From the IMG/VR virus record IMGVR_UViG_3300039367_000033, positions 1 to 9,220 of that record: a DNA stretch of 9,220 bases. One strand, given 5' to 3'. The notes beneath the pieces were generated by a model. It had not been told where the DNA came from and did not search any database. It worked only from the letters and a program-made list of their open reading frames with translations. Shown one piece after another: positions 1 through 9,220 of the stretch. Each line of letters starts with the position of its first letter. Positions within the stretch are counted from its first letter, which is position 1. Position numbers and translations under genes: made by a program. The stretch comes from a virus. Taxonomy: Duplodnaviria; Heunggongvirae; Uroviricota; Caudoviricetes.

Positions 1-186
1 CAAATTGGAACTTCTCAATGGCTTAACACCCATCAACAAGAAGCCTTCATATCCCACACTTTTAGAACCCAGTTTTTTAACACTGCTCAATTCATGTGGC
101 AACAGCAAACCTTGTCACGTCCAATTAGCCGGAAGGACTGTGCTCAATTTGTCACAGTTCGCTTTCTTAATTCTGGAGGTCAATGA
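1..186 (+). CDS. 3' end of an upstream gene running in from the left edge (partial, product unknown)
   Basis: Frame 1 is open from nt 1 to a TGA at 184-186 that overlaps the ATG at 186-188 of the ABC ATPase gene (TGATG). A second frame (5..199) is also open, so the frame choice is uncertain. AT-rich like the 5' part of the following gene. Confidence 0.3.
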   Translation, partial: QIGTSQWLNTHQQEAFISHTFRTQFFNTAQFMWQQQTLSRPISRKDCAQFVTVRFLNSGGQ

Positions 187-1094
187 TGACACTACTTGAC
201 ATAAATCATGTGGACTACTGTTACAACGAAGGAACGTCACCTACTATTCATAACATTAGTCTAACTGTCTGTCCGAATTCAACAACTGTCATTATAGGTC
301 CTTCAGGCATTGGCAAGACCACATTATTAAACTTGATCGCCGGTTATCTAAAACCCAGTCAAGGAACTTTAACCATGAACGGCAAATCAATAACAGGGCC
401 ATCTTGGAAGCGCGGCGTTGTTTTTCAAACAATGGCTCTTTATCCTTGGTTAAATGTCCGTGATAACATTTTGTTTGGTCCAAAAATGCGTCATCAATCT
501 TCAGACGATTTTACCATGCTATTAGAAAAAGCTGGATTAACTCATTATGTTAATCGCCCAATTTATACACTCTCAGGTGGTCTGAAACAACGCGTTGCCC
601 TTGTTCGCGCGTTCATCAACCATCCTCCGTTACTCATGTTAGATGAATCGTTTGGAGCTCTAGATAACCATACACGGGCAGAGATGCATACACTATTGTT
701 TGATCTCTGGCGTGCTACTCAAAATGCTATGATTATCATCACTCATGATATTGATGAGGCGCTACGGCTGGCAGAACATCTGGTATTGATGGATCACGGT
801 GAAGTGGTGCAGCAGGGCAATCCGCTGACGATGCTGACTCGTCCGGCGAATGATTTTGTTCGCCAGTTTTTTGGACGTAGTGAACTGGGTGTGCGCCTGC
901 TTTCGTTACGTAGTGTGGCGGATTACGTGCGTCGCGAAGAACGTGCAGAAGGTGAGGCACTGGCAGAAGAGATGACGCTACGCGATGCGCTCTCCCTGTT
1001 TGTCGCGCGGGGATGCGAGGTGCTGCCGGTGATGAACACGCAGGGCCAGCCTTGCGGCACGCTGCATTTTCAGGATCTGCTGGTGGAGGCGTAA
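186..1094 (+). CDS. yehX: ABC transporter ATP-binding protein: C-terminal ~115 aa look like the YehX/OpuCA-type tail ([11 protein letters not shown] plus a CBS-like region); N-terminal nucleotide-binding domain is AT-rich and looks TauB/SsuB-like
   Basis: ORF 183..1094. GGAGG at 175-179 sits 6 nt before the ATG at 186, so 186 is preferred over 183. Walker [11 protein letters not shown]-loop VVFQ, signature LSGGLKQR, Walker [14 protein letters not shown]-loop ITHD. Followed 4 nt later by a permease gene. Symbol applies to the 3' portion only; the gene appears mosaic. Confidence 0.8.
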
Positions 1095-1098
1095 ACGT

Positions 1099-1830
1099 AT
1101 GAAGATGTTGCGCGATCCGCTGTTCTGGCTCATTGCTCTGTTTGTGGCACTGATTTTCTGGCTGCCTTACAGCCAGCCGCTGTTTGCTGCCTTGTTCCCA
1201 CAACTGCCACGCCCCGTTTATCAGCAAGAGAGTTTTGCAGCTCTGGCACTGGCTCATTTCTGGCTGGTGGGAATTTCGAGTTTGTTTGCGGTGATCATTG
1301 GTACTGGTGCCGGAATTGCTGTCACTCGCCCTTGGGGCGCGGAATTTCGTCCACTGGTGGAAACTATTGCCGCCGTTGGACAGACTTTTCCGCCCGTTGC
1401 AGTGCTGGCGATTGCCGTTCCGGTGATCGGCTTTGGCCTGCAACCGGCGATTATCGCCTTGATCCTTTACGGTGTGCTACCCGTCCTGCAGGCGACACTT
1501 GCCGGGCTGGGATCGATTGATGCCAGCGTGACCGAAGTTGCCAAAGGCATGGGAATGAGTCGTGGTCAGCGACTGCGTAAGGTCGAGCTACCGCTGGCGG
1601 CTCCGGTGATTCTGGCGGGCGTGCGAACTTCGGTGATTATCAACATTGGTACGGCGACGATCGCCTCAACGGTAGGGGCCAGCACGCTGGGTACGCCCAT
1701 CATCATCGGGCTTAGCGGATTTAATACCGCGTATGTGATCCAGGGGGCGTTACTGGTGGCACTGGCGGCGATCATCGCAGACCGCCTGTTTGAAAGGCTG
1801 GTGCAGGCGTTCAGCCAGCACGCAAAATAA
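1099..1830 (+). CDS. yehW: ABC transporter permease of the osmoprotectant (OsmF-YehYXW) system
   Basis: 243-aa strongly hydrophobic protein with multiple predicted membrane spans, directly downstream of the ATPase gene; GGAGG upstream of the ATG; GC-rich enterobacterial codon usage. Confidence 0.88.
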
Positions 1831-1918
1831 AGGTATAACCTGCGAGCATGACGCCACCAATTCCGCCTAACGCCATAAACAGGAACAGGGCGATGACTCC
1901 AATTTTAGCTATGCGCAT
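1811..1918 (-). CDS. yohO: small membrane protein, 35 aa ([35 protein letters not shown]), YohO-like
   Basis: ATG at 1916-1918 (minus) preceded by AAGGAG with 7-nt spacing; single hydrophobic helix; TGA at 1811-1813; overlaps the yehW 3' end by 20 nt on the opposite strand. Not in the ORF track because it is short. Name is from memory of the K-12 locus. Confidence 0.55.
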
Positions 1919-1977
1919 AATGCACTCCTTATGTTAACGAAAGGATTGTACAGTAAAGCGCATTTGTTAACGAATCA

Positions 1978-2664
1978 TTAAATGCCGAGTGGGAAAATAT
2001 CATGGCCTTGTTCCTGCCAACTGGTGAGTTGCTGCTGTTGGGCGGAGGTTCGATTTTCACCGCACCACACCAGCAATGTACGGCCTTCGAACAGTTCAGG
2101 GCGTAGTTGATTGAGCGAGTGGGCGAGGACATCAATGCGCCATCCTTGTTGACTGGCAATCCAGCCCTCCAGCCACAGACGGGTGGTATCCTGAATATTC
2201 CAGCCAACCACCAGCGCATCTTTACCCTGTTTTTTACGTGCCGAAGCCAGACAAATGGCAATGTAGTTGATCAGTACGCCGTCGAGGATCGCCAGCAGCG
2301 CCTGGAGAGTCGGTTGTTGGCACTGAAGCCGTCGGCGCAGTGGAATGAACAGATGTGTGGTGAGTGTCTGGGCGGGGTAATCCTGACCGCGCTCTTTGAT
2401 CCACGTTCGCAGGCTATGCAGATTGCCGCTTTGCAGGTAAGTCAGTAATGTTTCTTGCTGATCGCGCCAGCCGTTCTGCACATCAACATTTTCATTACTG
2501 AGCAGCATTTTTACTTTGCTGACCTGCACGCCATTGTCGATCCAGCGTTTGATCTCGCGGATCCGGTCAATATCGGCATCGTTGAACAGCCGATGACCGC
2601 CGTCTGTCCGTTGCGGTTTCAGCAATCCGTAACGCCTCTGCCACGCGCGTAACGTGACAGGGAT
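1978..2664 (-). pseudogene. mlrA: mlrA (yehV) MerR-family regulator of csgD/curli, 5'-truncated by prophage insertion
   Basis: Minus-strand frame encodes ...PVTLRAWQRRYGLLKPQRTDGGHRLFNDADIDRIREIKRWIDNGVQ... through to TAA at 1978-1980. Upstream of about nt 2664 the frame reads SVSLPLI and hits a stop at 2695-2697 with no ATG or GTG; the only start in frame is an internal TTG at 2623-2625. From memory, intact MlrA begins MALYTIGEVALLCDINPVTLRAW, so the first HTH helix is missing. Confidence 0.8.
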
Positions 2665-2699
2665 TAAGGGTAAACTAACTGATTTTACAAGTTTTTATT

Positions 2700-3986
2700 T
2701 TACCCCACTTTCTTATGGGGCATACATGGGACACTTTCAGATAGTCTTTTGTTAAGGAGTTCTATCTGTTCGTGATTGTTGTCTTTCATCCATGCTCCGT
2801 AAACATTGAATACCATTTGTGCGTTTGTGTGGCCCATCTGGCTTGCGATAAAACTAGGATTAGCTCCAGCGGCAAGTGACCAGCATGCATAAGTATGCCT
2901 GGATTGGTACGATTTTCTGTGTCTCAGACCTGCGCGTTTTAAGATACTTGTCCATGACTCCCTGATGGAGTCAACCTTATAGTGCGGTCCGGAAAACTGC
3001 CGCTGTTTTATTACCTGAGGACTAAAAACAAAAGTGCATTTATGCACAGTACTTCTCCCATATTCCCTCTGCTTTACCTCTACAGAATGTTGCTTTCCAA
3101 GCATGGTCATTTCCGCCTGACTTTTAAGAGCATCAATAGCTGGTTGAACCAGATGAATTGTCCTTCCGGTGCCAGCATCGGTTTTTGGTGGAGTGAATTC
3201 GCCAAGTTTTGTATAATTCCTACGGATGGTTATAGTCCTTGCTTTAAGATCTATATCTTCCCATGCCAGCGATACCAGCTCCCCGTGACGAATACCCGTG
3301 TATACAGCGAGAATCCACAGGTTTTTTGTTTGTTGATGACGGCAAGCCTCAATAAAACGAATAAATTCGTCACGGGTGAGAGGATCTGGTTTTACCTTGG
3401 ACTTTTTTAAGGGTGCCAGACCGTTAAATGGGTTTCCTGAGGTATAACCATTATCTGTTGCAAATTGAAACATTCCAGCTATGGTTGTCATATAGTAGTT
3501 TACTGTGACCACTGAGCGCCCTTTTATGGAAGAAATCTTTCCATTAGAAAGCTTTTGGTAACCGGTCAACAAATCTCTCCTTGCGAAAAGTAAATCCTCT
3601 TTTGTTATGGATGAAACCAGTTTTTTCTCACCCAACATAGGCAACATGTTTTTAATTACTGACTGGTAACGATTAAGTGCATTCGCACAAATCTCAATTT
3701 TCTTAAGGTCCAACCATTTTTCCGAAAGTGCCTTAACGGTTATCTCTCTTTTTCCCAGACCAAAGTGTTTCAGGTTAGGGGAATTAGGGAACTGTGTGGC
3801 GTAGTCGAAACTCCCCATTCTGATTGCAAAACAAACGGAAGTGCGAAGTTCACCTGCGATCTTCCGGTTTTTGGCGGTGTCAGGAACACCGAGGTTTTCT
3901 CTGACACGTTTGCCATTATAGTGAAACCATATACGGAGTGATCCTCCATGGTTTTCAACGCCTGTCGGGTATGATACGTTACTCAT
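2700..3986 (-). CDS. int: phage integrase, tyrosine recombinase family (428 aa)
   Basis: ORF 2700..3986 with ATG at 3984-3986 and GGGAGG upstream. C-terminal catalytic-type motifs (LRHRKSYQSRHTY ... MGHTNAQMVFNVYGAW with a candidate active-site Tyr). Position next to the chromosome junction is typical of int next to attL. Confidence 0.93.
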   Translation of the reverse strand: MSNVSYPTGVENHGGSLRIWFHYNGKRVRENLGVPDTAKNRKIAGELRTSVCFAIRMGSFDYATQFPNSPNLKHFGLGKREITVKALSEKWLDLKKIEICANALNRYQSVIKNMLPMLGEKKLVSSITKEDLLFARRDLLTGYQKLSNGKISSIKGRSVVTVNYYMTTIAGMFQFATDNGYTSGNPFNGLAPLKKSKVKPDPLTRDEFIRFIEACRHQQTKNLWILAVYTGIRHGELVSLAWEDIDLKARTITIRRNYTKLGEFTPPKTDAGTGRTIHLVQPAIDALKSQAEMTMLGKQHSVEVKQREYGRSTVHKCTFVFSPQVIKQRQFSGPHYKVDSIRESWTSILKRAGLRHRKSYQSRHTYACWSLAAGANPSFIASQMGHTNAQMVFNVYGAWMKDNNHEQIELLNKRLSESVPCMPHKKVG

Positions 3987-4019
3987 TAAACCTCCCAGAC
4001 GTCCAGGAGCATTAACAGG

Positions 4020-4274
4020 TTAACCGGAACTTGCATTTTTGGCACCTGGTTGTTTCTGGTTTTCGATCCATCGCATAATTTCTTCGATGTTGTACAGGCA
4101 TTCACTGTAATGCCCAGGATCACCTTCTACAGCGTAATGGCGGTATTCTTTTCCCTGCATCCATGACTTTCTCCTGGCCCGCTCGATGGTGCCGGGCTTT
4201 AGCCCTGTTGATGCAATAAGGACTCTCTCCGTACACCATTTGCTGGGGGTTATCTGATAGATGATTGTCTGCAT
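4020..4274 (-). CDS. excisionase-like / small DNA-binding protein (84 aa)
   Basis: Immediately upstream of int in the same orientation (33-nt gap); ATG at 4272-4274 with GAGG 5 nt upstream; small basic protein with a W...R...G..EY pattern loosely resembling lambda Xis. Function inferred mostly from position. Confidence 0.55.
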   Translation of the reverse strand: MQTIIYQITPSKWCTERVLIASTGLKPGTIERARRKSWMQGKEYRHYAVEGDPGHYSECLYNIEEIMRWIENQKQPGAKNASSG

Positions 4275-4292
4275 GCCAACCTCATAAAACTT

Positions 4293-4427
4293 TCATCCAC
4301 GGCAGTGGCACCACACGTCAAACATTCGCTTCACAACTTCACGACAGTAGAAACCGTCACCATCTTGCGTCAGGTCATAGCGATTGCCGTAACGCTGGTG
4401 GACCCATCGTTCAAATGCTTTATTCAT
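4293..4427 (-). CDS. hypothetical small protein, 44 aa (MNKAFERWVHQRYGNRYDLTQDGDGFYCREVVKRMFDVWCHCRG)
   Basis: Not in the ORF track. ATG at 4425-4427 preceded by AAGGAAG, 3 nt after the TAA of the upstream gene; fills the gap between the 80-aa gene and the xis-like gene; ends TGA at 4293-4295. Confidence 0.45.
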   Translation of the reverse strand: MNKAFERWVHQRYGNRYDLTQDGDGFYCREVVKRMFDVWCHCRG

Positions 4428-4430
4428 TCT

Positions 4431-4673
4431 TTACTTCCTTTTTATGGCTCGTAATTTTTTCAGGTGCTTTTCCTGCTCAGTATCCGCGAGAATTTTGCGG
4501 TACTCCTGGTGGTCAATATGTTCGAACAGGCTGTTGAACTCAGTGATGCGTACCCGCCCGGAGCGCCCGTCCATCCTCCGAAAGAATACCGAGTGAACAG
4601 TACTGCGAGTAATTTTTACCGGGTAGCCAGCACTATCGGTGTATATCTGCCCGCGTTGAATCAAAGCGAACAT
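4431..4673 (-). CDS. hypothetical phage protein (80 aa)
   Basis: ORF 4431..4709 begins with TTG; the internal ATG at 4671-4673 (MFALIQRG...) is preferred because the TTG extension would overlap the coupled 27-aa ORF upstream. Basic C-terminus (KHLKKLRAIKRK). Confidence 0.6.
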   Translation of the reverse strand: MFALIQRGQIYTDSAGYPVKITRSTVHSVFFRRMDGRSGRVRITEFNSLFEHIDHQEYRKILADTEQEKHLKKLRAIKRK

Positions 4674-4677
4674 GTGG

Positions 4678-4761
4678 TTATCCCCATCGACAAATCGAGA
4701 ACACAACAAACGCTGCTGCGAATACCACCCCCAGAGTTACGATTGCATCAGGCCAGCTCAT
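4678..4761 (-). CDS. small hydrophobic peptide, 27 aa (MSWPDAIVTLGVVFAAAFVVFSICRWG), probable single-pass membrane peptide
   Basis: Not in the ORF track. ATG at 4759-4761 overlaps the TGA of the DUF551-like gene (ATGA); strong AGGAGG 7 nt upstream; TAA at 4678-4680 is 4 nt before the ATG of the next gene. Confidence 0.4.
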   Translation of the reverse strand: MSWPDAIVTLGVVFAAAFVVFSICRWG

Positions 4762-5303
4762 TGATTCACCTCCTGCGGCGGTTCTGGCAGCGGCATCCAG
4801 TGGGTTACCTCCTTGAGATACAGGTCTTCGCCATCACCGTCATCCCAAGTGGGCTTGCCATCATTAAACCAGTCGCCATATACGCCGACCTGAGTGTTGG
4901 GGATGTTTGGTGGGTAGTTGTTTTTAAAGTCAGCAGCTAACACATAGCATTGTCGCTCTCCCATTTCTGGCATTCGCTCACTACAGCTTATCCAACTCTC
5001 CGGAGTTACCGGAGAGTTGCCAGCCTCATACGCCACACGCATCCAGTGCATAAGCGTTTCAGTGCTCACACAGCCGCAATCAACATCAATTTTGCCGTGC
5101 TGCTGTTCCAGCCATTGCTCAAAAGTTAACTTGTAAGTTTGGCTTACAGGTTCTGCACTATCAGCTTCGCGCCGCTTCTGTAGCTCTGCTGCCATCGCTC
5201 TCACGACTTCAACTGGTGCCCTTGCCGCAAACTCTATGTTGGTGATCAGCTCATTAAGATATTGCTCGCCTGGATACTGTTTCTTATCGGTTATAGTGGT
5301 CAT
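4758..5303 (-). CDS. DUF551-domain phage protein (181 aa)
   Basis: C-terminal region WISCSERMPEMGERQCYVL...VTHWMPLPEPP matches the DUF551 pattern as I recall it (W-I-S-x-x-D/E-R-L-P ... T-H-W-M-P-L-P-E-P-P). ATG at 5301-5303 overlaps the upstream TGA (ATGA); GAAGGA upstream. Confidence 0.75.
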   Translation of the reverse strand: MTTITDKKQYPGEQYLNELITNIEFAARAPVEVVRAMAAELQKRREADSAEPVSQTYKLTFEQWLEQQHGKIDVDCGCVSTETLMHWMRVAYEAGNSPVTPESWISCSERMPEMGERQCYVLAADFKNNYPPNIPNTQVGVYGDWFNDGKPTWDDGDGEDLYLKEVTHWMPLPEPPQEVNQ

Positions 5304-5815
5304 GCTGCGTTTCCTTCTTTCTTATTAACAATTACACCGTCATATATTTCATTAAGGTGTCCTCTTAGCTCCATGCGCCTTAATGCAGATAACATGTAAT
5401 CGCATTCAACCTGCTTATTCCCAGTAAATGGCTTATCGTCAGAATTACCCCAACAGCAATTACCCCTGGGCCATCCATGTACTTTCCGTACTCTTCCGTT
5501 AACAACGTGAAGTAATCCCCAGCCGGGAGGTAAATCCTCAACTGAAATAATTTCCGGCTCACTAATAAAGAATCGCCAGTCGCCCATGCCAAGTGAGGGA
5601 TTTTTACGGAAACGCTTTTTTCTATCTGCCAACAAGTCAGCACGAGAACACTTCGCCTCTATCAGGCATGATGCTGAATTTCTGAATCCCATAGCATCTG
5701 GCTGTTCTCCGGTACTGGTTACAGCAACAAAGCGGTCATGAAAGCAAACCTTGAACCCGTTGCGCTTAAGGAACTTGTACGCAATCTGACAGAGTTCGTG
5801 GTGTGTTAACGCCAT
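5300..5815 (-). CDS. putative PD-(D/E)xK nuclease-like phage protein (171 aa)
   Basis: ATG at 5813-5815 preceded by AAGGAGAG (junction motif copy 1). Motif GEQPDAMGF...CLIEAKCSRADLL fits the PD...E-x-K signature of restriction-endonuclease-like / VRR-NUC folds. The TTG-extended ORF 5300..5875 is rejected. Family assignment is by eye. Confidence 0.7.
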   Translation of the reverse strand: MALTHHELCQIAYKFLKRNGFKVCFHDRFVAVTSTGEQPDAMGFRNSASCLIEAKCSRADLLADRKKRFRKNPSLGMGDWRFFISEPEIISVEDLPPGWGLLHVVNGRVRKVHGWPRGNCCWGNSDDKPFTGNKQVECDYMLSALRRMELRGHLNEIYDGVIVNKKEGNAA

Positions 5816-5816
5816 A

Positions 5817-6257
5817 TCACTCTCCTTTCCCATGAAGCATGGCGGCGCGGCAGGCGTTCCATATTTCGGCAGCAATATCGCGCTCGCTATCGGTTAATTT
5901 GTACGTGGAAACATAGCCAGAGAGCATTTCTACGTTTTCCGGAGTTGCTTCTTCCGGCACTACCGGCGCTGGCAAGGCAGCGTGATAGTAGAGTGGCATA
6001 GTTTTGTACAGTGGTTCGCCAGGACTTCCGTCAACCTGATTCCATTCTTCAACCCAGGCATCAACAACCGCTTTGCTGGTTGATACATGTTCTTCTGAAT
6101 CTACATTTTGTCCTGATATACAGAACATAACTGCTTCTGCTTCCAGCGATGCCAGTGCGATTTCATAAGCCCGACGCTCAATATTGTCTCGGACGTCCAG
6201 GCTGCCTATACGCTCTTTGATTTCTTTAATCAGTTCTTTGTCGGTTAAAGTGGTCAT
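5817..6257 (-). CDS. hypothetical phage protein (146 aa, acidic, ends KGE)
   Basis: ATG at 6255-6257 with GAGGA upstream, overlapping the TGA of the upstream gene (ATGA). N-terminus MTTLTDK resembles that of the DUF551-like protein (MTTITDK). Confidence 0.75.
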   Translation of the reverse strand: MTTLTDKELIKEIKERIGSLDVRDNIERRAYEIALASLEAEAVMFCISGQNVDSEEHVSTSKAVVDAWVEEWNQVDGSPGEPLYKTMPLYYHAALPAPVVPEEATPENVEMLSGYVSTYKLTDSERDIAAEIWNACRAAMLHGKGE

Positions 6258-6463
6258 TTGTTAATCCTCAAAACTTTATGCCCGGGCGCAAAAGCACGCG
6301 TTTTGTCTTTGCTTATTCGCCAGCCATCCTTGCGCGCCTCTTTTGCACAACCAGACCATGACGTACCGATATACTCACCGAAGTCTGGCGACTTATATTT
6401 GCCATCTGTACACTGGAGGCAGTCACAATAGAGATGCATGGTGTAACTTGCGGCAATAGCCAT
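6254..6463 (-). CDS. small Cys-rich protein (69 aa; CDCLQC...C...H, possible zinc-binding)
   Basis: ATG at 6461-6463 preceded by the exact junction motif AAAGGAGAGTGATATGGC (copy 2). The TTG-extended ORF 6254..6535 is rejected. Confidence 0.7.
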   Translation of the reverse strand: MAIAASYTMHLYCDCLQCTDGKYKSPDFGEYIGTSWSGCAKEARKDGWRISKDKTRAFAPGHKVLRINK

Positions 6464-6464
6464 A

Positions 6465-6659
6465 TCACTCTCCTTTAGTGCGCAAATGGTTTTTCCAGCG
6501 GTTTTGCGCCGCGCTGGGCTTTTTGCAAAAACCACAATCCATCATCCCGTAATATTTCATCAACCCCATCCGTCGGTTGCTGAGTCTCACCCACTGCCAG
6601 ACGCCAGGAGCGTTTCTACGAACTAACAGAATCTTTGCTTTACGGTTGTTGGTTGCCAT
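6465..6659 (-). CDS. small basic protein (64 aa, ends KGE)
   Basis: ATG at 6657-6659 preceded by the exact junction motif (copy 3); TGA at 6465-6467. Confidence 0.7.
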   Translation of the reverse strand: MATNNRKAKILLVRRNAPGVWQWVRLSNRRMGLMKYYGMMDCGFCKKPSAAQNRWKNHLRTKGE

Positions 6660-6660
6660 A

Positions 6661-7260
6661 TCACTCTCCTTTGATGCGAATGCCAGCGACGCGTAATGCG
6701 TGTTCTAGGTCAATCAGGTAAAGCCAACTGCCATTTTCTTTAGGTATCATGACATGTCGCTCATCTGCATTTATCGGGTGTCCATATCGAAGGTCGTAGC
6801 GAGTCGGTAATTGAACTTCCCGCGCTTCCAGTTCAGCAATACGCTTGCACCCATCAGAGATAACTCCCTCGTAATACTCGCGCTGCTCGTTGAGTTTTGA
6901 TTTTGCTGCTTCAAGCTCAACGAGCAGCTTCCCAACCGTAAGCGCAATATCCTCGTTCTCCTGGTCGCGGCGTTTGATGTATTGCTGGTTTCTTTCCTGT
7001 TCATCCAGCAGTGCCAGCACGGTAGCCGGGTTAGCCTCTGCTATGAATTCAGCGTTTGCATAAGCCTGAGCATCTGATTCAATCAGGCAGTTAACATGAC
7101 ATTCCGCAATCACGCCACCGGGTTCTCCTTTCCATTTTTGACAAACAAAAACTCCTGTTAAATTGCCGTGCTGGTTAACAGATGTATGCCCTACGATGTA
7201 GCTTCCTTTAGTTGCTTTCTCTGCCTTTTCACGCAGTGCCTGATAGTTAATCTCGCTCAC
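6661..7260 (-). CDS. Ea22-like early phage protein, paralog 1 (199 aa)
   Basis: GTG start at 7258-7260 overlapping the upstream TGA (GTGA), GGAGGA upstream. N-terminal MSEINYQALREKAEKAT... and ANAEFIAEANPATVLALLDE resemble ead/Ea22-like proteins as I recall them; central region has coiled-coil character; ends KGE. Confidence 0.75.
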   Translation of the reverse strand: MSEINYQALREKAEKATKGSYIVGHTSVNQHGNLTGVFVCQKWKGEPGGVIAECHVNCLIESDAQAYANAEFIAEANPATVLALLDEQERNQQYIKRRDQENEDIALTVGKLLVELEAAKSKLNEQREYYEGVISDGCKRIAELEAREVQLPTRYDLRYGHPINADERHVMIPKENGSWLYLIDLEHALRVAGIRIKGE

Positions 7261-7481
7261 TCTTCATCCTCCAAGTCGGCAACGGCGTCCATCACATCAG
7301 AACCGCGAATAACCTCAAAAGCACGGCAGGCCATTTGAAATACCAGTTGCTCTTGCGGGTGAGGAGACTCCCAATATTTGAAGCCTGGGCGATGCGTGTA
7401 CCCCATCATTGAATAAAAATCACCAGCAAGCTTAATCGCGGCATCGACAAGCTCTCTGTTAGTCATTCTTTTTCCGCTCAC
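7257..7481 (-). CDS. hypothetical small acidic protein (74 aa; 69 aa if the internal ATG at 7464-7466 is used)
   Basis: GTG at 7479-7481 overlaps the upstream TGA (GTGA), with AAGGAGG 6 nt upstream; same junction architecture as at 8702-8720. Confidence 0.65.
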   Translation of the reverse strand: MSGKRMTNRELVDAAIKLAGDFYSMMGYTHRPGFKYWESPHPQEQLVFQMACRAFEVIRGSDVMDAVADLEDEE

Positions 7482-8065
7482 TGGTTGCCTCCTTTGCGAA
7501 GCTGGGCGGCTAACTCATCACATATGTGCGTCAAAGAACAAAGTTTGATTGATGGATGTTCGCGCATCATCTCTACCCCCTGCGCCCGCACTTCAGACAG
7601 GAAAGCATCGGTGGCTGGCATATTTCCTGTTGCCTTCATTGCTTCCAAAATAACCAGAACGCCATCTCGCCCAATCTCCTCGCAGATAACCTCGGTGCTG
7701 TCGCCAACAACATCGCAAAATGCCTGAACTGCTTTACGAGCCAGCGCATTCTCCGCCACCAGCGCCGCGAGATTAGTCTCAAGCTCTGCAATTCGACACA
7801 TAGCATCAATATTTGTGTCCTCCAGGCGCTTAATTTCACCAAGCAGCTCCAGTGCAACCTTTGGGTTGAACGCGGCAACATGACGAGCGTTGTTCTCTGC
7901 ATTTTTCTGTCCATCAAAGCCGGTCCATTTGATAACGTCTTCACATCGTTCATCACCGGGCGTGTGCACCGCATAAGTACCAGTATCCGTCGAAATAAAT
8001 GCGACCCATTCGTCTGGTGTTGCCTTTTCTGCCGCCTCACGCAGTACCTGATAGTCAATTGTCAT
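7478..8065 (-). CDS. Ea22-like early phage protein, paralog 2 (195 aa; 198 aa if the ATG at 8072-8074 is used)
   Basis: N-terminus MTIDYQVLREAAEKAT and NARHVAAFNPKVALELLGE align with paralog 1. ATG at 8063-8065 overlaps the upstream TGA (ATGA), with AAGGA 8 nt upstream. Confidence 0.75.
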   Translation of the reverse strand: MTIDYQVLREAAEKATPDEWVAFISTDTGTYAVHTPGDERCEDVIKWTGFDGQKNAENNARHVAAFNPKVALELLGEIKRLEDTNIDAMCRIAELETNLAALVAENALARKAVQAFCDVVGDSTEVICEEIGRDGVLVILEAMKATGNMPATDAFLSEVRAQGVEMMREHPSIKLCSLTHICDELAAQLRKGGNQ

Positions 8066-8706
8066 TCTCGCCATCCTTCACAGTTGTAATCACTACAGCC
8101 TTCAAAATCATATGGGCTGTACTGCCAGGTTATTTTTCCGCAATGCGGACAATTCCAACGCACCTTCCCGCTTCGCGACTTCTTTCTTCTGTTCTGCTCT
8201 TTCAACCAGTCAGGCATGACCAAACCTGCGCCCTGAACCATTGTTCTGCGGTTAAAGTTATTGATATTGAACGTCCGGCGCTTTGCTGCATCAGCAATGG
8301 AAAATGGCAACCAAACTATTCCTGGTTCGTTTTTGTTGGCGACGCTAAAGATGGTCGCTTTACTGAAGTCATCTGTTGGCAATCCACCGTGTTGAAGCCA
8401 GTAAACATCATTGCCGTTCCAGCTACCTTTTTTGTAGGCCACATACGCAGTGCAATCTGACTCAATCAGGCTTTCTGTAGGGATGTACTGGCAATCAACG
8501 TGCCACACTGCCATTGCATCCACGCTATCCGCGCAAACAGGCTGATCGATATCTCGCCCACAATTCCAGGCTTTTTGGGCTTCTTCCAGCGTGTAAACAT
8601 GAGCGCGATCGATATCAGAACTGTAACCATTGCCGTTATGGCAATGGAATGAGGCGTTATTACCCACAGTTTCACGCAAGCACATCATGTAAAAACGGTT
8701 ACTCAC
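8062..8706 (-). CDS. hypothetical Cys/His-rich phage protein with C-terminal zinc-ribbon-like motif (214 aa)
   Basis: GTG at 8704-8706 overlaps the upstream TGA (GTGA), AAGGAGG 6 nt upstream; C-terminal CPHC-(x16)-CSDYNC; the longer TTG-initiated ORF 8062..8742 is rejected. No family recognised. Confidence 0.7.
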   Translation of the reverse strand: MSNRFYMMCLRETVGNNASFHCHNGNGYSSDIDRAHVYTLEEAQKAWNCGRDIDQPVCADSVDAMAVWHVDCQYIPTESLIESDCTAYVAYKKGSWNGNDVYWLQHGGLPTDDFSKATIFSVANKNEPGIVWLPFSIADAAKRRTFNINNFNRRTMVQGAGLVMPDWLKEQNRRKKSRSGKVRWNCPHCGKITWQYSPYDFEGCSDYNCEGWRE

Positions 8707-8942
8707 TGGATGCCTCCTTGGTGGAGTTGCGCTGCGATGCACGAAAAAAAAGACTCCCGTGTATGACTGTTAAGAGCTGGTGCGAACGCCTCGTTAAGAA
8801 CGGCGGCATCACAGCCGTCATCAATATAGAGCGCAATTTTTTTCTCCAGGCGCGCTTTGGCTTCCTGCAACTGCATACCCCGGCACGCACGCGGGATATA
8901 ATCAGCAATTTGAGCGATAGCTTTTTCGTTCTGTTTAAACAT
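8703..8942 (-). CDS. hypothetical phage protein (79 aa)
   Basis: ATG at 8940-8942 with GAGGTG upstream; overlaps the upstream gene end by 8 nt (ATGTTTAA). Confidence 0.65.
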   Translation of the reverse strand: MFKQNEKAIAQIADYIPRACRGMQLQEAKARLEKKIALYIDDGCDAAVLNEAFAPALNSHTRESFFSCIAAQLHQGGIQ

Positions 8943-9138
8943 GCTTCACCTCGATAGGCTTGATGGTGTCTAACAGCAGTCGGCGGCGCGTATTTTCTGC
9001 AAAATGGCGGCGTCCAGTTTCTTTGTGGTAAAACTCGTTTTTGCCAACGACCCACATCCGCTTTGTCTGGTGCAGTTTTTTTACCTGCGGACCGTCTCGG
9101 GTGATAACAATTCCTGTATGAGTTTTTATCACGCTCAT
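8935..9138 (-). CDS. hypothetical basic phage protein (67 aa)
   Basis: ATG at 9136-9138 overlaps a TGA that closes an open frame entering from the right window edge (ATGA); no clear SD, so expression probably depends on coupling. Confidence 0.6.
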   Translation of the reverse strand: MSVIKTHTGIVITRDGPQVKKLHQTKRMWVVGKNEFYHKETGRRHFAENTRRRLLLDTIKPIEVKHV

Positions 9139-9220
9139 TTTTTATTCTTCGGTGCTTTCGGCATTACTGCCCAGTGAGTGATATTGACGTTTTCAAGGTC
9201 CCCGACCTGAAATGTCCACA
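9135..9220 (-). CDS. 3' end of a further phage gene entering from the right edge (partial)
   Basis: A minus-strand frame is open from the window edge to TGA at 9135-9137 (...VGDLENVNITHWAVMPKAPKNKK*). A second frame is open to a TAA at 9164-9166, so the frame choice is uncertain. Confidence 0.3.
   Translation of the reverse strand, partial: WTFQVGDLENVNITHWAVMPKAPKNKK

What the first reader, a model, noticed from the sequence alone, without database searches (positions are those of the whole stretch)
5811..6672. Exact 18-bp gene-junction motif present three times within 860 bp
GCCATATCACTCTCCTTT (plus strand; coding sense AAAGGAGAGTGATATGGC) occurs identically at 5811-5828, 6459-6476 and 6655-6672. 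Each copy encodes the last three codons of one gene (K-G-E, stop TGA), one spacer base, and ATG-GC of the next gene, with the SD inside the upstream codons. The flanking genes are otherwise unrelated. Three exact 18-mers are not expected by chance. This looks like a shared linker at gene boundaries that standardises translational coupling and could act as a short homology patch for swapping gene cassettes between lambdoid phages.
Basis: seen in the sequence. Interest (0 to 1): 0.6.

Follow-up and report, generated by a model that had tools for sequence, protein, structure and literature searches.

The report
Shared gene-junction linker in lambdoid prophages
An 18-base stop/ribosome-site/start sequence joins unrelated small genes three times in this E. 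coli prophage. The same sequence joins many different gene pairs in thousands of related phages, so it is a clear example of the already-proposed "boundary sequences" at which phage genes are shuffled.

Summary
GCCATATCACTCTCCTTT occurs exactly three times, at 5811-5828, 6459-6476 and 6655-6672. Each copy is a minus-strand gene junction: ...K-G-E-TGA, one base, ATG-GC, with AAGGAG six bases before the ATG.

The window is the exo-xis (early-left) accessory region of a lambdoid prophage inserted beside mlrA/yehW in E. coli.

- **Same junction, different genes.** The 18-mer joins at least 5 upstream and 14 downstream protein families in 24 pairings.
- **Top of an unbiased scan.** Among prophages chosen only by their integrase, it is the short sequence with the most varied contexts.
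- **Homology stops at its edges.** In 5,426 complete E. coli genomes, matches to the window's junctions usually end exactly at the motif.
- **Indels bounded by it.** The window's nearest relatives differ from it by 844-bp or 648-bp indels bounded by motif copies.
- **Wide distribution.** Lambda ea22, HK022, HK620, P27, P22-like Salmonella phages and P1-like P7 carry the motif or close variants.

Both mechanisms are inferred, not tested. The idea is old (Susskind and Botstein 1978; Clark et al. 2001). Many breakpoints in this region lack the motif, so the interest is modest.

The parts
5811..5828 (-). Linker copy L1. It holds the last three codons of gene D (K-G-E), TGA (5817-5819), one T, then ATG-GC of gene E (ATG 5813-5815), with AAGGAG as the SD.
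   Evidence: It is a breakpoint in related loci.
6459..6476 (-). Linker copy L2. It holds the end of gene B (…LRTKGE*), TGA 6465-6467, and ATG 6461-6463 of gene C.
   Evidence: PGAP calls the same junction in NZ_CP027309. It is re-assorted in 372 of 633 matching E. coli genomes but is not a breakpoint in the integrase-matched set.
6655..6672 (-). Linker copy L3. It holds the end of Ea22-like gene A (…AGIRIKGE*), TGA 6661-6663, and ATG 6657-6659 of gene B.
   Evidence: It is a breakpoint.
6655..6687 (-). Extended Ea22-type linker GCTGGCATTCGCATC + 18-mer (33 nt). The same stretch ends lambda ea22, HK022 gp37, HK620 hkaG, P22-like EaA and P7 upf88.3.
6661..7260 (-). Gene A, an Ead/Ea22-like protein (199 aa from GTG). 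Its variable C-terminal part ends in the conserved tail.
   Evidence: Pfam PF13935, E=4e-40; translation.
6465..6659 (-). Gene B, 64 aa, function unknown (phrog_1380). It is a one-gene cassette between L3 and L2.
6254..6463 (-). Gene C, 69 aa, Cys-rich, function unknown (phrog_926).
5817..6257 (-). Gene D, 146 aa, function unknown (phrog_5117). It ends …WNACRAAMLHGKGE*, and its start overlaps the stop of C (ATGA).
5300..5815 (-). Gene E, 171 aa, with a predicted PD-(D/E)xK nuclease fold. It is the commonest downstream partner of the linker.
5829..6672 (-). An 844-bp segment (genes B, C and D plus one linker copy) that is present in the window and absent from 13 otherwise 95-99% identical loci. 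It is bounded by L3 and L1. The nested 648-bp segment 5829-6476 (C and D) is absent from 8 loci.
   Evidence: the HSPs end at 5828 and begin at 6655 or 6459, and overlap by 18 nt in the subject.

Best explanation
The 18-mer is the core of a conserved gene-boundary (linker) sequence in the exo-xis / early-left accessory region of enterobacterial temperate phages. It does two things.

(1) On the mRNA it is a compact termination-reinitiation junction. A strong SD (AAGGAG) is built from the last codons of the upstream ORF, the TGA stop lies one base before the ATG, and the next small ORF is translated in step with the previous one. This is inferred from the anatomy.

(2) On the DNA, the same 18 to about 40 nt sits at many junctions. 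Recombination between copies, in one genome or between co-resident phages and prophages, yields products in which both ORFs stay intact and coupled. Such recombinants survive, and the patch spreads with them. The likely routes are annealing by phage Rad52-like recombinases, or slippage between direct repeats. The result is a cassette-like array in which single genes or gene pairs are inserted, deleted or swapped at the linker.

Shown here: sequence identity, position at junctions, re-assortment of flanks, and breakpoints and indels exactly at the motif edges. Inferred: the recombination pathway, the direction of events, and the translational coupling.
For: - **Anatomy.** Searches give the structure, and annotations agree.
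- **Not convergence.** Among one genome per bacterial species (596 Gb), the 18-mer occurs only 58 times, mostly in unrelated MAGs, and only 21 of those have open frames on both sides. By contrast, 41 of 78 prophages chosen only by their integrase carry it, always on the sense strand a few kb upstream of int.
- **Re-assortment.** The first clustering gave 29 by 16 flank clusters in 52 combinations. Protein-level clustering gave at least 5 upstream and 14 downstream families in 24 pairings.
- **Unbiased k-mer scan.** AAAGGAGAGTGATATG is the top-ranked sequence by diversity of both flanks (10 by 9 contexts).
- **Breakpoints.** 48 of 312 internal HSP ends fall within 8 nt of the three copies, which cover 2% of the query.
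- **Exact indels.** A-[one linker]-E occurs in 13 loci and B-[one linker]-E in 8 loci, with flanks 95-100% identical to the window.
- **E. coli genomes.** For junction A/B, 1,917 genomes match and only 24 have the same pairing. For D/E, 1,203 match and 18 have the same pairing. For B/C, 633 match and 261 have the same pairing. Sampled partial matches mostly end at query positions 32 or 47-50, the motif edges.
- **Distribution.** Lambda ea22, HK022, HK620, P27, P22-like Salmonella phages and P7 carry it.
- **No protein-level constraint evident.** The tail shows both synonymous and non-synonymous variants.
- **Literature.** Recombination at short conserved sequences at gene borders is a recognised model for lambdoid mosaicism (PMC2327257, PMC3528268, PMC3029335, PMC3945230). 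Rad52-like phage recombinases drive exchanges on short, diverged homology (PMC3945230).
Against: - **Short patch.** The three copies in the window share only 18 nt. From established knowledge, this is below the roughly 23-27 bp minimal efficient segment for RecA and below the 30-50 nt usually needed for efficient Red recombination. Exchange at the bare core would therefore be rare. Only about 19% of junction pairs with unrelated flanks share 12 or more extra nt.
- **Other hotspots.** Equally strong breakpoint hotspots exist without the motif, at 4770-4810, 4960-5030, 5280-5289, 6900-6909, 7020-7029 and 7260-7269. The linker is therefore not required for mosaicism here.
- **L2 inconsistent.** L2 shows no breakpoints in the integrase-matched set.
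- **Non-independent counts.** Counts of loci and HSP ends are not independent evolutionary events.
- **No direct test.** No experiment or direct test of coupling or recombination was possible.
Confidence: 0.75

Rival explanations
1. Passive marker. Mosaic joints arise by random illegitimate recombination, and selection keeps only those at gene boundaries (the Hendrix model). On this view the shared patch is the inherited 3' tail and RBS of a few ancestral genes, and it is not itself used for recombination.
For: Many breakpoints in the same region lie at motif-free positions, including inside genes. 18 nt is short for homologous recombination. The upstream side is dominated by one mosaic superfamily, Ea22-like.
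Against: The identical patch sits between pairs in which both flanks are unrelated. It is attached to at least 5 upstream and 14 downstream families. Random joints would not repeatedly regenerate the same 18 nt. Indels are bounded by direct copies with exactly one copy left, and homology ends exactly at the patch edges in E. coli genome matches.
Confidence: 0.15
2. Convergent evolution. Selection for an optimal SD-stop-start arrangement produced the same 18 nt independently at the three junctions.
For: Every position except the spacer and a few others has a translational role. The same 18-mer turns up sporadically in unrelated bacteria, often in front of an ORF.
Against: There are only 58 occurrences in 596 Gb of species representatives, against about half of integrase-matched prophages. 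Other junctions in the same operon are coupled with quite different sequences, such as ATGA and GTGA overlaps. In a subset of junctions identity extends 12-22 nt further into coding sequence.
Confidence: 0.04
3. Dedicated site. The linker is the target of a specific enzyme, giving a homing-like or integron-like cassette system. Candidates are the PD-(D/E)xK nuclease-fold protein E encoded just downstream, or an HNH endonuclease.
For: E has a nuclease fold with invariant D39, E52 and K54. It is the commonest downstream partner, at 39 of 114 distinct junctions. One downstream partner looks like an HNH endonuclease from its N-terminal sequence, and one E. coli genome hit is annotated as HNH endonuclease.
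Against: Thirteen other downstream families use the linker. E homologues in Providencia and Lonsdalea prophages sit in the nin region without the linker. The motif has no dyad symmetry or hairpin. No IntI-type recombinase is present.
Confidence: 0.03
4. Protein-level motif or local duplication. Either the conserved C-terminal K-G-E (…AGIRIKGE) peptide is what is selected, or the three copies are remnants of a local duplication.
For: The tail …AGIRIKGE ends many Ea22-like proteins, including lambda Ea22.
Against: Conservation continues past the stop codon into the next gene's start. The tail shows both non-synonymous (G>D, R>C, R>G, K>E) and synonymous changes. B and D carry only K-G-E. The flanking genes are unrelated, which excludes duplication.
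Confidence: 0.03

Closest known systems
Boundary / linker sequences of lambdoid phages (modular theory of Susskind and Botstein 1978; Clark, Inwood, Cloutier and Dhillon 2001, J Mol Biol 311:657, phage HK620)
   Same: Both are short conserved sequences at gene borders, shared by phages whose flanking genes differ, and proposed as sites of homologous exchange. The HK620 hkaG/hkaF junction carries a variant of this motif: cgcgccgctggcattcgcatcAAAGGAGAGTGAgATGga, which differs at 2 of the 18 positions, the spacer (g for T) and the last base (a for C).
   Different: The 2001 paper could not be read here, so I cannot say whether this exact sequence was listed. The scale seen here was not found in the searchable literature. 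That scale is three copies in 860 bp, about a third of complete E. coli genomes, and P1-like plasmids.
Translationally coupled gene junctions (termination-reinitiation, e.g. trp operon UGAUG-type overlaps). This comparison rests on established knowledge.
   Same: The SD lies inside the upstream ORF, and the stop codon is within a few nt of the next start.
   Different: Ordinary coupled junctions are idiosyncratic in sequence. Here one exact sequence is reused at many unrelated junctions. Coupling was not tested.
Relaxed homologous recombination by phage Rad52-like recombinases (Martinsohn et al. 2008, PMC2327257; De Paepe et al. 2014, PMC3945230)
   Same: It provides a plausible enzymology for exchange between temperate phages and prophages at short or diverged homology.
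   Different: As far as I read those experiments (and the abstract), the substrates were diverged homology regions of 88-95% identity, the largest 3,353 bp. Exchange at an 18-40 nt patch is an extrapolation.
Integron gene cassettes (attC sites with IntI)
   Same: Both are arrays of small, promoterless, same-orientation genes separated by a recurring short element. Single-gene units are gained and lost at that element.
   Different: There is no hairpin-forming imperfect palindrome and no IntI. The element here is a translation signal, and the exchange is presumably by general rather than site-specific recombination.
Mosaic ea22 genes of lambda and Stx phages (PMC10834534)
   Same: It is the same genomic region (exo-xis). 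Ea22 homologues share N-terminal and coiled-coil parts and have swapped C-terminal domains.
   Different: In the passages I retrieved, that work describes protein-domain mosaicism and does not mention the shared stop/SD/start junction.

Membership tests
Lambdoid boundary/linker sequence (Susskind-Botstein / Clark) | A short conserved sequence located at gene or module borders | tested here: met
   All three copies span a stop and the next start. 124 of 127 IMG/VR occurrences have open frames on both sides. Annotations agree.
Lambdoid boundary/linker sequence (Susskind-Botstein / Clark) | Shared between phages, or junctions, whose flanking sequences are not homologous | tested here: met
   At least 5 upstream and 14 downstream protein families in 24 pairings. 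The window's flanks are unrelated. It ranks top in the unbiased context-diversity scan.
Lambdoid boundary/linker sequence (Susskind-Botstein / Clark) | Homology breakpoints between genomes coincide with the sequence | tested here: met
   HSPs end at 5828, 6459 or 6655 with an 18-nt overlap. Breakpoints are enriched about 8-fold. Partial matches in E. coli genomes end at the motif edges. L2 is weaker.
Lambdoid boundary/linker sequence (Susskind-Botstein / Clark) | Recombination actually occurs within the sequence | not testable with these tools
   This needs crosses or deletion assays with intact and scrambled linkers.
Translational-coupling junction | An SD at a functional distance from the start, lying inside the upstream ORF | tested here: met
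   AAGGAG lies 6 nt before the ATG, within codons K-G-E. A ribosome-binding site is annotated there in P27.
Translational-coupling junction | The upstream stop lies within a few nt of the downstream start | tested here: met
   TGA, one nt, then ATG in all three copies.
Translational-coupling junction | Downstream translation depends on upstream translation | not testable with these tools
   This needs reporter fusions with upstream nonsense mutations. No inhibitory RNA structure is predicted (z-scores about 0).
Integron attC cassette array | Recombination sites are imperfect inverted repeats that fold into a hairpin | tested here: not met
   No inverted repeat lies at or around the linkers. 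Folding is no better than for shuffled sequences.
Integron attC cassette array | An adjacent IntI-type integrase and a Pc promoter | tested here: not met
   The only recombinase in the window is the prophage integrase at 2700-3986. It is near-identical (98-100%) in prophages with zero, one, two or three linker copies.
Local tandem or segmental duplication | Copies share homologous flanks | tested here: not met
   Identity stops at exactly 18 nt, and the flanking proteins are unrelated.
Known structured RNA element | A match to an Rfam family | tested here: not met
   No match at gathering threshold anywhere in the window.

The most novel reading that the evidence does not exclude
The exo-xis region may be a true cassette array in which this linker is a dedicated exchange site. 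It would be preferentially processed by a phage function, such as the Red/Erf-type annealing proteins or the PD-(D/E)xK nuclease-fold protein E encoded immediately downstream in about a third of junctions. Accessory genes would then be traded between lambdoid and P1-like phages at rates far above background. That would make it a recombinase-independent analogue of an integron, built from a translation signal.
Probability: 0.05. Interest if true: 0.75.

Novelty: new member of a known kind. Interest (0 to 1): 0.3.

Why it matters
How temperate-phage genomes become mosaic has been argued for decades. One view is homologous exchange at short shared linkers. The other is random illegitimate joining followed by selection.

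This locus is an unusually clean natural example for the linker view:
- One exact 18-mer occurs three times in 860 bp.
- It flanks one-gene and two-gene cassettes.
- The predicted recombination products are present in sequenced relatives.
- The same joint is spread through about a third of complete E. coli genomes and into P1-like plasmids.

It offers a simple, testable substrate: compare intact with synonymously scrambled linkers, with and without the phage recombinase. It does not overturn anything. The concept is established, and many neighbouring breakpoints do not use the motif.

Tried and rejected
- **Clark et al. 2001** is not held in the library, and neither is Brussow et al. 2004. I therefore could not check whether this exact motif was published.
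- **Full-text search** for GGAGAGTGATATG returned only two unrelated papers.
- **Family searches.** NCBIfam gave no hits for any of the nine proteins. Pfam gave none for B, C, D or E even at E=10. PDB sequence searches for E gave nothing significant.
- **Single-sequence AlphaFold of E** was unusable (pLDDT 44). It was redone with an alignment.
- **The GTDB scan** gave mostly chance-level hits in unrelated MAGs. It served only as a background rate.
- **Rfam** gave nothing. There is no RNA or DNA structure at the linkers.
- **Apparent B+E fusion proteins.** The phrog_9263 profile and the long proteins P0001 and P0005 (235 and 200 aa) initially looked like fusions. Their N-terminal parts do not match B and read through the linker in E's frame. 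I judge P0001 and P0005 to be over-extended ORF calls, not frameshift products.
- **A prfB-like +1 frameshift reading** was rejected. No slippery codon precedes the TGA, and the SD overlaps the P-site codon.
- **Ascertainment bias.** The first breakpoint histogram used loci selected for the motif and was therefore biased. It was repeated on integrase-selected loci.
Full report
**1. Observation**

GCCATATCACTCTCCTTT occurs exactly three times, at 5811-5828, 6459-6476 and 6655-6672. No further copies appear with up to three mismatches. Chance expectation is 0.02, and 0 of 200 shuffles reached three. It is the only three-copy direct repeat in 4000-9220.

Read on the minus strand, each copy is AAA GGA GAG TGA-T-ATG GC. 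That is the last three codons (K-G-E) and stop of one ORF, one spacer base, and the start of the next ORF. AAGGAG lies six bases before the ATG. Identity among the three copies ends at exactly 18 nt on both sides.

**2. Context**

The window is an E. coli chromosome segment (yehX, yehW, mlrA) followed by a prophage. Integrase is at 2700-3986 and excisionase at 4020-4274. A leftward string of small accessory genes follows: the exo-xis or early-left region of a lambdoid phage.

The minus-strand order is:
- A, Ead/Ea22-like, 6661-7260
- L3
- B, 64 aa, 6465-6659
- L2
- C, 69 aa, 6254-6463, with an ATGA overlap onto D
- D, 146 aa, 5817-6257
- L1
- E, 171 aa, 5300-5815, with an ATGA overlap onto F
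- F, DUF551, 4758-5303

A, B and D (upstream partners) and B, C and E (downstream partners) are unrelated to one another. Independent annotations of identical junctions give the same gene calls. These are PGAP on plasmid NZ_CP027309, P7, and P27, which also marks a ribosome-binding site in the motif.

**3. Recurrence elsewhere**

Of 127 occurrences, 124 have open frames on both sides.

Clustering the flanks gave 29 upstream and 16 downstream nucleotide clusters in 52 combinations. At protein level, with the shared tail removed and conservative single linkage, there are at least 5 upstream and 14 downstream families in 24 pairings among 114 distinct junctions.

A 39-nt extended version matches 176 phage records. 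These include Stx phages, HK022, BP-4795, P27, phiV10, P22-like Salmonella phages (at the end of EaA), P1-like phage P7, and lambda itself. Lambda ea22 ends ...DAGIRIKGE* with gctggcattcgcatcaaaggagagTGA. HK620, the phage in which boundary sequences were described, has a variant that differs at 2 of the 18 positions at hkaG/hkaF.

Across one genome per bacterial species (596 Gb) there are only 58 exact hits. My own calculation for a random 18-mer on both strands gives about 17. Most hits are in unrelated MAGs and are not two-sided junctions. The motif is therefore specific to enterobacterial temperate phages, and convergence cannot explain three copies in 860 bp.

**4. An unbiased test**

The first set of loci was selected for the motif. 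I therefore fetched 78 new loci chosen only by similarity to the window's integrase.
- 41 carry at least one copy, always on the sense strand a few kb upstream of int. Three have the window's three-copy layout.
- Among all 14-mers in these loci, those with the most diverse contexts on both sides are the ones tiling AAAGGAGAGTGATATG: 10 left and 9 right contexts, 16 combinations.
- In blastn of the window against these loci, counting one locus per architecture, 48 of 312 internal HSP ends lie within 8 nt of the three copies. Those copies cover 2% of the query.

**5. Exact products**

In 13 loci, including the best-matching complete E. coli genome (NZ_OZ547117), one HSP ends at 5828 and the next begins at 6655. 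The two overlap by exactly 18 nt in the subject. These relatives have A-[one linker]-E, so the window differs from them by an 844-bp indel (B, C, D) bounded by direct linker copies. Eight further loci have B-[one linker]-E, a 648-bp indel of C and D. Flanks are 95-100% identical.

In 5,426 complete E. coli genomes, I queried 80 nt spanning each junction (31 + 18 + 31):

| Junction | Genomes matching | Same pairing as window |
|---|---|---|
| A/B | 1,917 | 24 |
| D/E | 1,203 | 18 |
| B/C | 633 | 261 |

In the sampled rows, the partial matches mostly begin at query position 32 or end at 47-50, which are the edges of the motif. For A/B, many stop at position 40, just after the TGA, as in lambda. 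About 180-200 of these places are on plasmids (the sampled ones are about 65-145 kb), consistent with P1-like phage-plasmids.

**6. Extent and variants**

Between junctions with unrelated distal flanks, exact identity stops immediately upstream of the 18-mer in 57% of pairs. It extends 12 or more nt in 19% of pairs, through the ...GIRI tail, giving 30-40 nt patches. Downstream it never extends more than 7 nt.

Relaxing the search shows variants. These include TGAgATG, TGAgaATG, GTG starts, and second codons other than GCN. The tail carries both synonymous and non-synonymous substitutions, which argues against selection on the peptide.

No Rfam family, RNA structure or inverted repeat is associated with the motif.

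**7. Mechanism**

The anatomy is that of a termination-reinitiation junction, so translational coupling of these promoterless small ORFs is the likely RNA-level role. This is inferred.

The comparative pattern is what recombination between copies of a short shared sequence predicts: the same patch between many unrelated gene pairs, homology ending at its edges, and indels bounded by direct copies with one copy left. Such recombinants are favoured because both ORFs remain intact and expressed.

Phage Rad52-like recombinases are documented to drive exchange between temperate phages and prophages on limited, diverged homology (PMC3945230, PMC2327257). Slippage between close direct repeats is an alternative route for the deletions.

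Points against a strong version of this explanation:
- 18 nt is short for efficient RecA- or Red-mediated exchange (established knowledge).
- Equally strong breakpoints occur at motif-free sites, inside the DUF551 and Ea22-like genes and at other junctions.
- L2 is not a breakpoint in the integrase-matched set.
- Locus counts are not independent events.

**8. Comparison with what is known**

Recombination at short conserved sequences at gene borders in lambdoid phages is an established proposal. It is credited to Susskind and Botstein (1978) and Clark et al. (2001) by several papers (PMC3029335, PMC2327257, PMC3528268, PMC3945230). The mosaic nature of ea22 is also published (PMC10834534).

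I could not read Clark et al.. The motif string is absent from the searchable literature.

I therefore file this as a well-supported member of a known kind, not a new kind of element. It meets the three testable defining features of a boundary sequence. It fails those of integron attC sites, local duplications and known RNA families.

**9. Side result**

In Providencia and Lonsdalea prophages its homologue sits in the nin region, next to RusA or NinG, without the linker. It is therefore not tied to the motif, which weakens a homing-type explanation.

**10. Verdict**

The phenomenon is real, widespread and tidy, but conceptually known. Interest is 0.3.

Noticed in passing
window 7476-7498 (minus strand): A second recurring junction type, cgcAAAGGAGGCAACCAGTGAGC. 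The upstream ORF ends ...RKGGNQ*, and its TGA overlaps the GTG start of the next gene. It links the Ea22-like gene 7478-8074 to gene 7257-7481. The same junction appears in Salmonella phage SF3 and HK620 (hkaH/hkaG), with a shorter related form (…aggcaaccaGTGa) in P7.
   Followed up: partly
window 4971-4993 (minus strand), inside DUF551 gene F (4758-5303): GGATAAGCTGTAGTGAGCGAATG is the second most context-diverse short sequence in integrase-matched prophages (about 12 left and 7 right contexts). It lies at a strong intragenic breakpoint cluster (4960-5030). This suggests a domain-boundary linker inside DUF551 genes.
   Followed up: partly
window 6234-6257 and 5280-5303 (minus strand): Genes D and F both begin ATGACCACT(T/A)T(A)ACCGACAAA (MTT[L/I]TDK), as do HK022 gp36, P27 gp10 and others. 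In HK022 and P27 this start is fused directly to the KGE linker. This is a shared 5' gene-start patch, and 5280-5289 is also a breakpoint hotspot.
   Followed up: partly
[not shown]
   Followed up: yes
L262 (phage P7, NC_050152 88328-89531) and L267 (E. coli plasmid NZ_CP027309): P1-like phage P7 and about 90-100 kb E. coli plasmids carry the same Ea22-like-[linker]-E or A-L-B-L-C modules. In P7 these lie in the C1-controlled hea operon. These cassettes therefore move between lambdoid and P1-like phages.
   Followed up: partly
protein P0009: A 245-aa protein joins an Ea22-like N-terminal and coiled-coil part in frame to protein E from about residue 11. This is an intragenic chimera, not a junction at the linker.
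   Followed up: no
window 1-2700: The host flank is yehX/yehW and mlrA (yehV), with the prophage integrase abutting mlrA. From my own knowledge, this is the integration site used by Stx1-type prophages of E. coli O157. No complete E. coli genome covers 80% or more of the window, because of the B-C-D cassette and other mosaic differences.
   Followed up: partly
window 6661-7260 and 7478-8074 (minus strand): Two Ead/Ea22-like genes lie in tandem. They share only the N-terminal domain (29% identity) and have different C-terminal parts. Breakpoint clusters at 6900-6909 and 7020-7029 lie inside gene A.
   Followed up: no
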